Of a stretch of DNA of 24,589 nucleotides, positions 3,185-24,270 are shown piece by piece. The notes under the pieces are model-generated. The model made no database searches, had not been told where the DNA came from, and saw only the letters and a program-made list of their open reading frames with translations. Source of the stretch: a virus (Duplodnaviria > Caudoviricetes); IMG/VR virus record IMGVR_UViG_3300020042_002797, positions 1 through 24,589 of that record; one strand, written 5' to 3'. The translations under genes were made by a program, and so were the position numbers. Each line of letters begins with the position of its first letter. Within the stretch, counting starts at the first letter, position 1.

Positions 3185-4428
3185 CCACCTTTACCTCTCC
3201 CTTCACGGGCCAAGTCATCCAGCCAACGGATGTCTCGTATCGCTCCATTTCTCTGACGGCTACCAGCCAGCTAACGTGGCCTATCAACGGCAGCCCAACG
3301 GACGATGTTGCCGCACGCATCATGGATGTGTCCTCGACATCCACGACAGGTGCCTTCTCGCTGCTGATGCCGCCAGCCAACCAGACATCGGTTGGTCAGG
3401 ATGCTCTGATTCGCAACACTGGCTCGTATGCCTTCACGGTCAAGGACTACCTCGGCGTCAATGCAATTGCTACTGTTGCCCCAAGCACGGCTGTCTACAT
3501 CTACATCAGAACCAACACCACCACTTCTGGCACTTGGGGTCTGATTCAGTTTGGCGTTGGCTCATCAAATGTAGACGCGGCTGCGCTTGCCGGGTATGGG
3601 TTGAAGGCAATCACCAGCACCCTGAACACCGCCCATCCGGTCACCACGTTCTCTTCTGCATACACCGCAATTGCCTCTGACCGCGCAGCATCCTATGTCT
3701 GGACTGGCGGCGCAGCAACGCTTACCCTTACCGCAGCGACTACGTTGGGCAATGACTGGTTCATGTTGATTCGCAACGGCGGTACTGGCACTTTGGCGGT
3801 GACCCCGGCATCTGGACTCATCAACGGCGTTGCATCCATTGCTTTACAGCCAGCGGACTCCTGCATCATCTGCTGCTCTGGAACCGCATTCTTCACCGTT
3901 GGCTTAGGCCAAGCCTCGCAGTTCAACTTTACCCAGTTGACCAAGGCGGTAGTGACAGGAACCTACACCCTGACATCGTCAGAAGCGTCCAACGTGGTGC
4001 AAAAGTACACAGGCACCTTGACTGGCAATGTGACCGTCATATTGCCGCCGACCATTCAGGTGTACTACATCACCAACCAAACAAACGGCACGGCGTCAAA
4101 CTTCACCATCACGTTCACCACCAATTCAGGTGGAACCGTTGCAACGGTGCCAGCGGGCCAACAGGTCACTTTAATTTGTGACTCGGTCAACCTGCTGAAC
4201 GCAAACACCGTCCTTGCTGGCGCAAGCAGCATCTCCTTGATTGATGGAACCGTTGGAGCGCCTGCACTGAACTTTTCATCTGAGACGTCAACTGGTGTTT
4301 ATCGCGCAACTTCGGGTGAGTTCAACACTGCCATCTTGGGCGTTCTGCGTTCCACGCTGTCGGCCACCGGTCTGGCAATTGTTGGGACAGGCAACTTCAC
4401 CGGTGGAGTTTCTGGCGGTACGTTTTAG
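3181..4428 (+). CDS. Virion structural protein (tail/fibre-proximal, Thr/Gly/Ser-rich beta protein)
   Basis: 415 aa, translationally coupled to both neighbours; DGTVGAPALNFSSETSTGVYR is a fibre-type motif. Confidence 0.7.
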   Translation: MTTFTSPFTGQVIQPTDVSYRSISLTATSQLTWPINGSPTDDVAARIMDVSSTSTTGAFSLLMPPANQTSVGQDALIRNTGSYAFTVKDYLGVNAIATVAPSTAVYIYIRTNTTTSGTWGLIQFGVGSSNVDAAALAGYGLKAITSTLNTAHPVTTFSSAYTAIASDRAASYVWTGGAATLTLTAATTLGNDWFMLIRNGGTGTLAVTPASGLINGVASIALQPADSCIICCSGTAFFTVGLGQASQFNFTQLTKAVVTGTYTLTSSEASNVVQKYTGTLTGNVTVILPPTIQVYYITNQTNGTASNFTITFTTNSGGTVATVPAGQQVTLICDSVNLLNANTVLAGASSISLIDGTVGAPALNFSSETSTGVYRATSGEFNTAILGVLRSTLSATGLAIVGTGNFTGGVSGGTF

Positions 4429-19201: not shown

Positions 19202-19408
19202 ATGCCACCAATGACACTCGTTGAGTATTTCCAGCCCCTCCCCCGTGGAGCCAAGTCAGCAATGGCTAAGGAGCTAGGCGTGACCAAAACATGGATTGCG
19301 CTGCTGATAGCTGGCACCCGCAGGCCCAGCGCAGCCCTTGCCGTACAAATCGAACAGTACACCCGCAAGGCAGTTAAAAAGCGAGAGCTGCGTCCTGATT
19401 TATTTTGA
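19202..19408 (+). CDS. Cro/YdaS-like HTH transcriptional regulator
   Basis: KSAMAKELGVTKTWIALLIAGTRRPS HTH and C-terminal ELRPDLF; first gene of the rightward operon. Confidence 0.88.
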   Translation: MPPMTLVEYFQPLPRGAKSAMAKELGVTKTWIALLIAGTRRPSAALAVQIEQYTRKAVKKRELRPDLF

Positions 19409-19423
19409 TGTTACACTAACTCT

Positions 19424-22199: not shown

Positions 22200-22447
22200 A
22201 TGAGCGCTACAAACCTAAACCACCCACCATTCGAGCGCTACTGCGGGAACATGCAGACGGCCTTTGTGTGTCTGACATCTGCGCTAGAACGGGCATCGAA
22301 ATGAAGGTGGCTAGAGCGTGCCTCAAGAAGATGGAGGACGCCTACATAGACCGATGGTTGGGAGGCGGTTACCAACGCCCGTCAGAGGCCATCTGGTGCG
22401 TGGTGTTAGTCCCGGAAAACTGCCCCCGCCCAAAGAAGAATAAATGA
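22196..22447 (+). CDS. Putative winged-HTH DNA-binding protein
   Basis: ATG22196 (ATGA overlap); IRALLREHADGLCVSDICARTG...YIDRW. Confidence 0.68.
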   Translation: MNERYKPKPPTIRALLREHADGLCVSDICARTGIEMKVARACLKKMEDAYIDRWLGGGYQRPSEAIWCVVLVPENCPRPKKNK

Positions 22448-22749
22448 CCACCAAGGACGAACAGCGTCACATGTCCCTTGTGGCCGAGCTTGGCTGCGCC
22501 GTGTGCAGAAGGATGGGCTATGAGGGCACCCCGGCAGAACTACATCACCCAAGGGCCGGGACAGGGGCTGGGAGACGCGCCAGCCACATGGATGTCATAC
22601 CCTTATGCCCAGAGCATCACCAAGGCAAGACGGGCGTCCACGGACTGGGAACCAAGGGATTCCCCAAGCACTGGGGGTACGGGGAGGCCGAGCTTCTGGA
22701 GGACACCAGAGCAGAATTGAGAAAACTAATCGGTTTGAGAATCCAATAG
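22444..22749 (+). CDS. ref: Ref-family recombination enhancement (RecA-dependent HNH) nuclease
   Basis: LGCAVC, AELHH.R.G.G.GRRASH and IPLCPEHH motifs, with GVHG. Confidence 0.87.
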   Translation: MTTKDEQRHMSLVAELGCAVCRRMGYEGTPAELHHPRAGTGAGRRASHMDVIPLCPEHHQGKTGVHGLGTKGFPKHWGYGEAELLEDTRAELRKLIGLRIQ

Positions 22750-22759
22750 AAAAAATTGT

Positions 22760-22850
22760 GAAATATTTTTGAGAGAGATGGTTTTTAGTGTAATTTGCAG
22801 TTACACTACAGGCACTGACCAAGCAATAGTGCAAGGCAGGTAACAAGGAA
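22760..22850 (+). promoter_or_regulatory. Putative early promoter with leader hairpin
   Basis: AAATATTT at 22761-22768; TACACT at 22802-22807; leader CACTG...GCAATA...GCAGGTAACA followed by an AAGGA RBS. Confidence 0.6.
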
Positions 22851-23202: not shown

Positions 23203-23484
23203 ATGAAAACCACTATCACCGCGCACTTGCACTACAGAAAATATGACTTTGACGAGAAGGGGACGTTTGAGCTTTTTGCCGTCAGTCTGGGTGACTCTGA
23301 TGGCAGAACCTATATCGGCCCACGCGAAGTTGAGGTTGATGTGCCTGAAGACTATGACCCACGCGCACAGCAGATTGCCGCGTTGGAAAAGCAAAAGCAA
23401 AAGGTGATGGCTGACTTTCAGAAAACCATCACCGAAATCAACGCCCGCATCAGCAACCTACAAGCATTGGAGTACACAGCATGA
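23203..23484 (+). CDS. Hypothetical phage protein
   Basis: ATG23203 after AGAAAGAA; 93 aa with a beta-rich N-half and a coiled-coil C-half. Confidence 0.75.
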   Translation: MKTTITAHLHYRKYDFDEKGTFELFAVSLGDSDGRTYIGPREVEVDVPEDYDPRAQQIAALEKQKQKVMADFQKTITEINARISNLQALEYTA

Positions 23485-23867
23485 CACAAAAAACCAAGGA
23501 AGAGTTGCTTGATTTTTTTGCAATGGAGGCTATGAAGTCGCTTGTGTCGCGGGCCAGTGGGTTAATGAACGCATACAACTTGGCTGGGGAGGCTTTTGTC
23601 ATTGCCGAGCAAATGGTTGAGCGCCGACAAAAAATATTGCATCAATGGGCGCTGGCTGAAGACGTTGTGCAGCGCGGTATTGAAGAACTAAATCTTACAG
23701 CTAGGACGGTGCGGTGCTTAAAGGCCGAGGGCGTTTTTACGCTACAGCAATTGCAAAGTTGCACTGAAGGAAAGTTGTTGAGAATGCCAAATTTTGGACG
23801 TAAAAGTCTCAATGAAATTATTGAACAAATGGCCTCTTTTGGCTACAAACTAAGGGATTACACATGA
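23481..23867 (+). CDS. Phage protein with a C-terminal RNA polymerase alpha-subunit CTD domain
   Basis: IEELNLTARTVRCLKAEG...TEGKLLRMPNFGRKSLNEI aligns without gaps to RpoA VDDLELTVRSANCLKAEA...TEVELLKTPNLGKKSLTEI. Confidence 0.9.
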   Translation: MTQKTKEELLDFFAMEAMKSLVSRASGLMNAYNLAGEAFVIAEQMVERRQKILHQWALAEDVVQRGIEELNLTARTVRCLKAEGVFTLQQLQSCTEGKLLRMPNFGRKSLNEIIEQMASFGYKLRDYT

Positions 23868-24172
23868 ACGACCACATTGTCATCAACGTTGATACGGGCG
23901 AGTACGAGTGCCAGCACTGCGGTGCCACTCATTCCCCGCCCAAGATGCCCGTGCCCATCGACAGCCTGCTAGACCACATGGACATGTTCACTGCTGCCCA
24001 TCAGGACTGCAAGGCGTCTACTGAGGCATCCCCACCGCCCACTGAGTACGAGCAGGGCTTCGAGGCGGGCGTAGGGTTCATCCTGAACGCTTTCGAGCAG
24101 CAGATGGGCCTACCCCCTTACGATGAGCACACAGACATCCTAAAGCGCCTGCTGGACTATCTCAAGCACTAG
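23864..24172 (+). CDS. Hypothetical protein with a CxxC...HxxC zinc motif
   Basis: YECQHCG and HQDC; ATGA overlap with the upstream gene. Confidence 0.7.
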   Translation: MNDHIVINVDTGEYECQHCGATHSPPKMPVPIDSLLDHMDMFTAAHQDCKASTEASPPPTEYEQGFEAGVGFILNAFEQQMGLPPYDEHTDILKRLLDYLKH

Positions 24173-24270
24173 GGAAACTACCTAGAAAATATTTTGGTTG
24201 GAAGTGTTGATGTTGTTTAATTTAGTGTTACACTTCCAATCACTGCAATAAGCAGGTAACACAGAAAGAC
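24169..24270 (+). promoter_or_regulatory. Putative early promoter with leader hairpin
   Basis: CTAGG-N7-CCTAG (24169-24185), AAAATATTTT (24186-24195), TTGATG-16-TACACT with an extended TG, and leader CACTGCAATAAGCAGGTAACA. Confidence 0.65.

What the first reader, a model, noticed from the sequence alone, without database searches (positions are those of the whole stretch)
23481..23867. Phage-encoded RNA polymerase alpha-CTD mimic that keeps the DNA-binding residues but alters the activator and sigma contacts
Seen: the last ~60 aa align without gaps to the RpoA CTD. Using E. coli numbering from memory, the UP-element-binding residues R265, C269, N294, G296, K298 and S299 are retained (N268 becomes R). 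The sigma70-contact E261 becomes N, and the CRP-contact V287/E288 become G/K. There is no alpha-NTD; the N-terminus instead resembles a small phage helical motif (LLDFFAMEAM...AFVIAEQMVERR). Inference: an early protein that could occupy UP elements (such as host rRNA promoters or the phage's own early promoters) or titrate alpha-CTD partners. It could also act as a decoy for defences or enzymes that target alpha.
Basis: partly seen in the sequence, partly recalled or inferred. Interest (0 to 1): 0.78.

Follow-up and report, generated by a model that had tools for sequence, protein, structure and literature searches.

The report
Phage alpha-CTD fused to helical hairpin
A freshwater phage carries an optional small gene that joins a common phage two-helix module to a copy of the DNA-gripping tail of the bacterial RNA polymerase alpha subunit, a pairing that related phages also carry in the reverse order, and the protein likely competes with the host polymerase for AT-rich promoter DNA, though this is untested.

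Summary
Confirmed: 23481-23867 (+) encodes a 128-aa protein whose residues 61-118 are an RpoA alpha-CTD (Pfam PF03118, E 8e-18), with no alpha-NTD. The N-terminus is a widespread phage helical hairpin (phrog_2201-like). The gene is under purifying selection (dN/dS 0.10-0.14) and is an exchangeable cassette (empty site in a relative). In the family, 79 of 84 sequences keep six DNA-face residues (265, 294, 296, 298, 299, 302). The sigma-contact acids and E288 are mostly lost, and N268 is often R or H. The 'rewired contacts' claim holds only in part: V287 is not V in host-like RpoA either, this protein keeps acids at 258/259, and K271-E273 are kept. New here: a second 24-member family has the same two modules in reverse order, with a separately branching CTD that also keeps R265/K298. 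Best reading (45%): a likely oligomeric competitor at UP elements. Binding NusA through the same face is the main rival. The upstream UP-like promoter is clade-wide and does not track the gene. UniProt already names such phage proteins, and this scan noted the class in at least 25 other genomes. I found no functional study.

The parts
23481..23867 (+). Gene for the 128-aa hairpin + alpha-CTD protein (P0001); low-GC cassette with ATGA overlaps on both sides
   Evidence: GC 44.8% and GC3 47%, against 52.5% GC for the window and GC3 59-78% in six nearby genes; empty site in L287
23496..23663 (+). N-terminal two-helix module (predicted helices 6-24 and 31-61), related to the stand-alone phage hairpin family phrog_2201/37111/20565
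   Evidence: AlphaFold2 model; HHalign; PHROG hits of relatives
23661..23855 (+). RpoA alpha-CTD-like domain (E. coli about 251-315), DNA face kept, C-terminal tail beyond 318 absent
   Evidence: Pfam PF03118, PDB search, residue tables
22750..22807 (+). Predicted promoter of the gene cluster: A/T tracts (UP-like, 10 of 11 match at 22761), perfect inverted repeat AGTGTAA-N7-TTACACT (22787-22807) over the -10-like hexamer TACACT (22802-22807), poor -35
   Evidence: best window hit (29.8 bits) of a matrix built from 49 promoters of related phages; not found by the generic sigma-70 scan
24169..24234 (+). Second copy of the same promoter motif, in front of the next gene cluster
   Evidence: 28.3 bits
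22857..23165 (+). First gene of the cluster (phrog_6244, unknown function); context, widespread without the alpha-CTD gene
23203..23484 (+). Upstream neighbour (phrog_2479, unknown function); the slot behind it holds many different genes in relatives
23864..24172 (+). Downstream neighbour (no Pfam or PHROG family); directly follows the 23203 homolog in the empty-site relative L287

Best explanation
The gene encodes a captured RNA polymerase alpha-CTD joined to a small phage helical hairpin; the hairpin likely makes it self-associate, and the protein would then bind AT-rich UP elements without recruiting polymerase and so would likely dampen UP-dependent promoters (host rRNA promoters and/or the phage's own strongest promoters). 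Shown: domain anatomy, selection, the pattern of kept and lost residues, accessory status, the reversed-order family. Inferred from E. coli genetics: DNA binding by the 265 face and reduced contact with sigma region 4. Untested: oligomer formation, targets, timing and sign of the effect.
For: Surface residues R265 (99%) and K298 (98%) and the whole 265 determinant as listed in PMC10853779 stay fixed in the family, while unassigned positions keep the host-like residue only 34% of the time on average. The 261 determinant averages 15%; three acids at 258/259/261 remain in 6 of 85 family sequences against 45 of 60 RpoA. Net CTD charge averages +2.1 against -1 in E. coli and host-like RpoA. dN/dS is 0.10 (CTD) and 0.14 (hairpin) over 117 pairs. 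A second family with the modules reversed keeps R265, G296 and K298 in 21 of 21 and replaces 258/261 with mostly W/P. Other phages attack this same step: T4 ModA/Alt modify R265 (PMC2988021 passages), LUZ19 Rac causes cleavage of the CTD (PMC7552054 passages), and G1 gp67 blocks UP binding at rRNA promoters (PMC3694059 abstract).
Against: N268, whose substitution by A or W abolishes UP activation in E. coli (PMC11434276 passage), is R in this protein and is kept in 24 of 85. The same face binds NusA-AR2 (reference title in PMC7171158), and 5 of 5 host-like genomes have both NusA acidic repeats. UP-like strength of the clade promoter is the same with (12) and without (49) an alpha-CTD gene in the locus (p 0.83 and 0.82), and UP-like tracts are not enriched upstream of the gene (8 upstream, 11 downstream of 32). 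The phage's own promoters carry UP-like tracts, so a blunt competitor would also hit them. alpha-CTD-like domains are reused in very many non-RpoA proteins (23,841 representatives matched, many of the best being tandem repeats), so the domain may be a generic DNA anchor.
Confidence: 0.45

Rival explanations
1. The kept face binds a protein rather than DNA, most likely NusA-AR2 (or another host factor that docks on the UP-binding site), so the phage protein would release or sequester NusA and alter pausing, termination or antitermination.
For: [quoted passage not shown] 5 of 5 host-like genomes carry two NusA C-terminal repeats. AR domains are acidic and the phage CTD is more basic. N268 to R or H could suit an acidic protein partner.
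Against: No test here separates the two ligands. R265 is also kept in many tandem-repeat alpha-CTD proteins (seen by eye) and in the Bacillus phage Goe8 protein, which suggests a general DNA role. No antitermination element was identified in the window.
Confidence: 0.2
2. The hairpin docks on a phage or host partner (possibly other hairpin-bearing phage proteins or polymerase), and the CTD acts as an extra, tethered alpha-CTD that activates or redirects transcription at phage promoters.
For: Hairpin matches are common in these phages (87 hits in 84 loci of the viral loci held, stand-alone and fused together), several loci hold both a stand-alone hairpin and a CTD fusion, the hairpin weakly matches phrog_30599 'transcriptional regulator', K271-E273 and T285/E286/L289 are kept, and this window's promoter has a poor -35.
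Against: The clade promoter occurs mostly without the gene (7 of 135 neighbour-anchored loci hold any alpha-CTD), and the sigma-contact acids are eroded.
Confidence: 0.15
3. The alpha-CTD is used as a generic helix-hairpin-helix DNA anchor for a non-transcriptional job (coating, replication or recombination) of the hairpin module.
For: The domain is fused to SNF2 helicase, sigma region 4, T5orf172 and to itself up to 12 times. Neighbours are often recombination or replication genes.
Against: The protein is tiny and has no catalytic domain; the kept positions follow the UP-binding determinant closely.
Confidence: 0.12
4. The protein is a decoy that absorbs enzymes or defence sensors aimed at the host alpha subunit, for example ADP-ribosyltransferases of competing phages.
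For: R265, the T4 Alt/ModA target, is kept in 99% of the family.
Against: A decoy should track the whole host surface, but large parts of the surface have drifted while host-like RpoA is almost invariant. No such enzyme or defence system was identified for this host.
Confidence: 0.06
5. A non-functional fragment of host rpoA carried along by the phage.
For: The gene is dispensable among relatives.
Against: dN/dS 0.10-0.14, intact frames in the 67 of 80 kept loci with the fusion, fixed family-specific residues.
Confidence: 0.02

Closest known systems
C-terminal domain of bacterial RNA polymerase alpha subunit (RpoA about 250-329; Pfam PF03118; PDB e.g. 1coo, 1lb2, 2jzb, 3ihq)
   Same: Sequence and predicted fold of residues 61-125; 265 determinant kept; 52% identity to host-like RpoA CTD, 45% to E. 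coli.
   Different: No alpha-NTD, so no assembly into polymerase; a phage hairpin instead; E261, E288 and N268 changed; tail after 318 missing; more basic; optional and mobile.
Database-annotated phage alpha-CTD proteins (UniProt 'RNA polymerase, alpha subunit, C-terminal' of uncultured Caudovirales phages, e.g. A0A6J5MNY7; Mycobacterium phage Mithril A0A5Q2WLP1; Rhodococcus phage Finch A0A2P1JY10; Bacillus phage vB_BmeM-Goe8 Goe8_c00050)
   Same: Stand-alone alpha-CTD on a small unrelated domain in a phage accessory region. A0A6J5MNY7 aligns over the full 128 aa at 36% identity.
   Different: N-terminal domains differ between groups (Goe8 has a 146-aa unrelated one). My 10 paper searches found no functional study of any of them.
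Phage proteins that cancel alpha-CTD/UP contacts: T4 ModA and Alt, LUZ19 Rac, Staphylococcus phage G1 gp67
   Same: The step that the best explanation says is attacked.
   Different: They modify, cleave or block the host domain and are unrelated in sequence. Here the phage carries its own copy of the domain, and the activity is only predicted.
Phage hairpin family phrog_2201 / phrog_37111 / phrog_20565 (unknown function)
   Same: The N-terminal module: two helices with the D-x-F-A and A-Y/F-x-x-A motifs.
   Different: Usually stand-alone or at the C-terminus of other proteins; here diverged (P0001 itself scores only E 0.04-0.08 on these PHROGs) and N-terminal to an alpha-CTD.

Membership tests
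RpoA alpha-CTD domain (PF03118) | Profile match above the curated cut-off | tested here: met
   64.4 bits against 23.8, E 8e-18
RpoA alpha-CTD domain (PF03118) | Four-helix alpha-CTD fold | tested here: met
   AlphaFold2 helices 74-82, 88-92, 96-100, 107-119 at pLDDT above 90; Foldseek hits to viral alpha-CTD models. The fold search against PDB could not be run.
RpoA alpha-CTD domain (PF03118) | 265 determinant (265, 268, 294, 296, 298, 299, 302; PMC10853779) | tested here: met
   6 of 7 kept in this protein (N268 is R); six kept together in 79 of 84 family sequences
RpoA alpha-CTD domain (PF03118) | 261 determinant (257-259, 261), sigma region 4 contact | tested here: inconclusive
   This protein: I/E/E/N, two acids kept and E261 lost; family: three acids in 6 of 85 against 45 of 60 RpoA
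RpoA alpha-CTD domain (PF03118) | 287 determinant (285-289, 315, 317, 318), activator contact | tested here: inconclusive
   T285, E286, L289 kept; E288 is K; position 287 varies in RpoA itself; positions 315-318 read R-D-Y-T against G-M-R-L
RpoA alpha-CTD domain (PF03118) | Binds UP DNA or NusA-AR2 | not testable with these tools
   needs binding assays
Full RNA polymerase alpha subunit (RpoA) | alpha-NTD for dimerisation and core assembly, about 330 aa | tested here: not met
   128 aa, only PF03118 and a weak HHH_5 match; viral record with one match
phrog_2201-like phage hairpin | Profile-level homology of the two-helix motif | tested here: met
   HHalign 90.3% to a stand-alone copy and 95.3% (E 2.3e-8) to the hairpin of the reversed family, control segment 0.04%; family member P0021 hits phrog_2201 at E 3.7e-6
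phrog_2201-like phage hairpin | Self-association (proposed, not an established feature) | not tested
alpha-CTD-inactivating phage factors (ModA/Alt, Rac, gp67) | ADP-ribosyltransferase, acetyltransferase or sigma-binding fold | tested here: not met
   no such Pfam or PHROG match

The most novel reading that the evidence does not exclude
Phages have more than once rebuilt a polymerase-free 'alpha dimer': a widespread small hairpin replaces the alpha-NTD as the pairing domain, in either order, giving a bivalent UP-element binder that silences rRNA and other UP-dependent host promoters by direct mimicry. This would be a new route of host transcription take-over and a first function for the common phrog_2201-type hairpin.
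Probability: 0.3. Interest if true: 0.75.

Novelty: new variant of a known kind. Interest (0 to 1): 0.5.

Why it matters
Several phages are known to disable the host alpha-CTD by enzymes or blockers. Carrying a free copy of the domain would be a different strategy, and my searches found no test of it. The family is large and natural variation shows which surfaces are kept. The same two modules occur in both orders, which points to a real functional pairing and gives a handle on a very common phage hairpin of unknown function. The protein is small and can be tested with standard E. coli promoter assays. If the activity is confirmed it could also serve as a tool to switch off UP-dependent promoters. 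The bare observation (phage gene with an alpha-CTD) is already in database annotations.

Tried and rejected
Complex prediction of a homodimer was not available; no verdict. Fold searches against the PDB (Foldseek and VIA-align) never ran, so the hairpin has no solved-structure comparison. A model of the reversed family was queued but not finished. PHROGs has no family for the whole protein at E <= 0.001. The search for shorter stand-alone hairpins with residues 1-58 gave 1 hit among 1 candidate, a 42-aa piece. The ESM Atlas gave no usable hit for residues 1-60 and only unnamed viral clusters for a stand-alone hairpin. The genome scan gave 1 close family member among 80 kept loci (an 868-bp contig in a Rhodoferax MAG); the rest were mostly ordinary rpoA. 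That MAG has three alpha-CTD fusion genes and no rpoA match, and these small contigs may be mis-binned phage DNA, so it is only a weak host hint. Among 301 genomes of that MAG's family only five listed rows show more than one PF03118 match; the extras were not examined. Co-occurrence of the gene with UP-like promoters was tested and rejected. The generic promoter scan found 5 sites against 4.2 expected and missed both clade promoters. No RNA holder was listed. One tree run returned no answer and was redone with FastTree. The reading 'V287G marks loss of the CRP contact' was rejected because host-like RpoA has N or T there. Paper searches found no study of a phage-encoded alpha-CTD; the library lacks most subscription papers, no Goe8 genome paper came up, and I opened no supplements, where genome annotation tables could mention such genes.

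Full report
1. Observation. The window is a viral record of 24,589 bases, estimated 45% complete. It has virion and endolysin genes on the left and Cro-like, O-like, RusA and Ref-like genes on the right. The ORF at 23481-23867 (+) gives a 128-aa protein and overlaps both neighbours by ATGA. Residues 61-118 match Pfam RNA_pol_A_CTD at E 8e-18, and all 51 PDB sequences matched at E <= 1 are RNA polymerase alpha chains. The AlphaFold2 model (mean pLDDT 82, pTM 0.50) has helices 6-24 and 31-61 followed by the alpha-CTD at pLDDT above 90; the relative position of the two parts is uncertain.

2. Family. 46 of 59 candidates pass E <= 0.001, including the query. In IMG/VR contigs 163 of 336 pattern matches are relatives; of the best 80 loci kept, 67 carry the hairpin-CTD fusion and 13 a CTD with another or truncated N-terminus. 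Among 56 unique genes, 117 pairs of moderate divergence give dN/dS 0.14 for the hairpin and 0.10 for the CTD (the pairs are not independent). Public runs holding related DNA are mostly labelled freshwater metagenome; four were laid and show matching contigs. The CTD is 52% identical to RpoA from the family of a Rhodoferax MAG (7 unique CTDs from 30 loci; the tool does not name the family, and 'Burkholderiaceae' is my recalled label), 45% to E. coli and at best 50% to other RpoA; 63 of 85 family sequences are closest to that sample. A short-alignment tree puts the family next to the beta/gamma-type RpoA (support 0.886 and 0.944; weaker). No alphaproteobacterial RpoA was sampled, so a betaproteobacterial source and host are likely but not shown.

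3. Which surfaces are kept. Determinant definitions are from passages of PMC10853779 and PMC1874639. In 85 unique family CTDs: R265 99%, C269 86%, N294 99%, G296 100%, K298 98%, S299 98%, E302 96%; 79 of 84 keep 265, 294, 296, 298, 299 and 302 together. Several of these are also structural, but R265 and K298 are surface residues. N268 is N in 60 of 60 RpoA but in 24 of 85 family members (41 R, 14 H); E. coli N268 substitutions damage UP activation (PMC11434276 passage), so this counts against simple UP binding unless R/H make an alternative backbone contact. The sigma-contact positions 257-259 and 261 average 15% identity to host-like RpoA; three acids remain in 6 of 85 against 45 of 60 RpoA. 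This protein itself keeps two of them (E68, E69). Position 288 is acidic in 58 of 60 RpoA and 18 of 85 family members (54 basic). Position 287 is N or T in host-like RpoA, so it is uninformative. T285 (91%), E286 (69%), L289 (94%) and K271/A272/E273 (88/86/71%) are kept. Net charge is +2.1 on average against -1. So the DNA face is kept, the sigma face is eroded, and activator faces are only partly changed.

4. The N-terminal module and the reversed family. The hairpin is homologous to small stand-alone phage proteins (HHalign 90%) that hit phrog_2201, 37111 and 20565, all of unknown function. L169 has the canonical motif fused to an alpha-CTD. L201, a close relative of this phage (first cluster gene 97% identical, near-identical promoter), lacks this gene but carries, 2.4 kb further on, a protein with the alpha-CTD first and the hairpin last; L203 does too. 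That reversed family has 24 members among 57 candidates. Its CTD matches ours at 98.5% and its hairpin at 95.3%, E 2.3e-8, against 0.04% for a control segment. In 21 sequences it keeps R265, G296 and K298 in all, N268 in 90%, and has mostly W at 258 and P at 261; it forms a separate long branch (support 1.0) outside our family. Independent capture is likely but a 60-column tree cannot prove it, and a rearrangement of one ancestral fusion is not excluded.

5. Context. The gene is the third of four behind a predicted promoter at 22750-22807; a second copy lies at 24169-24234. A matrix from 49 promoters of related phages without a nearby alpha-CTD finds these two as the best window hits (29.8 and 28.3 bits). 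The motif has A/T tracts resembling a UP element (consensus recalled, not from a call; 10 of 11 at 22761, reached by 0.3% of window 25-mers), often TTGAC, and an inverted repeat across the -10. The promoter does not depend on the gene: 7 of 135 neighbour-anchored loci hold any alpha-CTD (5 of 58 with full 4-kb flanks), and UP-likeness is equal with and without it (12 against 49, p 0.83 and 0.82). Only 7 of 81 family gene rows have this promoter upstream at 14 bits or more; the others sit in varied small-gene regions of other phage types. The slot itself is variable: of 58 rows for the upstream neighbour's homologs, 1 is followed by this gene, 1 (L287) directly by the downstream neighbour, 53 by other genes (in L308 a stand-alone hairpin gene) and 3 reach a contig end. 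One contig in run X5 also joins 23483 to 23864 (29 letters on the short side, weak). GC3 is 47% against 59-78% in six nearby genes. The gene is therefore an exchangeable accessory cassette.

6. Mechanism. Best reading (0.45): the hairpin pairs subunits, as the alpha-NTD does in the host, and the basic CTDs occupy UP tracts without bringing polymerase, lowering UP-dependent transcription. This step is a known phage target: T4 ModA/Alt (PMC2988021 passages), LUZ19 Rac (PMC7552054 passages), G1 gp67 (PMC3694059 abstract). Oligomer formation, DNA binding and targets are untested. The main rival (0.2) is binding of NusA-AR2: alpha-CTD binds it (PMC7171158 passages), reportedly through the UP site (title in its reference list only), and 5 of 5 host-like genomes have two NusA repeats. 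A tethered activator (0.15), a generic DNA anchor (0.12; 23,841 cluster representatives match the profile and many top hits are tandem repeats or fusions), a decoy (0.06) and a dead fragment (0.02) follow.

7. Novelty. Phage alpha-CTD proteins are already named in UniProt (5 of the 6 BFVD hits at E <= 0.001, plus weaker hits in Mycobacterium phage Mithril and Rhodococcus phage Finch) and in the cultured Bacillus phage Goe8. This scan's notes hold 25 findings of the class in at least 25 other genomes (unchecked AI notes, several also proposing a pairing domain); none matched this sequence, and a word search for a reversed hairpin fusion found none with all words. Ten paper searches found no functional study. 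Verdict: a real, selected, uncharacterised variant of a known domain in a new architecture; interest 0.5.

Noticed in passing
L201:6738-7229 and L203:6136-6618: Reversed fusion (alpha-CTD first, hairpin last) in close relatives of this phage that lack the forward gene; family of 24 proteins.
   Followed up: yes
window 22750-22850, 24169-24270, 19397-19417; loci L201-L280: Clade-wide promoter-like motif: TAGGG..CCCTA-type palindrome, A/T tracts, TTGAC, a 15-16 bp spacer, an inverted repeat GTTTAA-N7-TTAAAC over the -10 (here AGTGTAA-N7-TTACACT), then a conserved leader. Looks like an operator for a phage regulator, possibly the Cro-like gene at 19202-19408; no CI-like repressor or integrase was seen in the window.
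   Followed up: partly
L170:1333-1716 (Rhodoferax MAG contig): A diverged hairpin + alpha-CTD gene lies directly after a Cro-like gene, the place where lambdoid phages keep cII (position recalled).
   Followed up: partly
L021:3405-3791 and 3949-4299: Two divergent copies of the fusion gene close together in one phage.
   Followed up: no
L066, L072, L074, L075, L078-L080; L082/L083; L084: The same phage CTD lineage fused to unrelated N-terminal domains, showing domain swapping.
   Followed up: partly
P0048, P0049, P0050, P0052, P0063, P0067: Proteins with up to 12 tandem alpha-CTD repeats, some with SNF2 helicase, sigma region 4 or Sel1 domains; P0048 starts with a signal-peptide-like stretch. 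Origin unknown.
   Followed up: partly
L087:1959-2591 (Bacillus phage vB_BmeM-Goe8): Cultured phage with a 210-aa alpha-CTD fusion near the genome end, matched at two places in the record; a practical system for testing the class.
   Followed up: partly
phage collection hits H1-H17: Most matches in the phage collection look like host rpoA in bacterial or unannotated contigs rather than phage genes; four are annotated as rpoA, the others were not opened.
   Followed up: no
window 22444-22749: Ref-like RecA-dependent nuclease gene (PF16786) directly before the promoter, an arrangement seen in several family loci.
   Followed up: no
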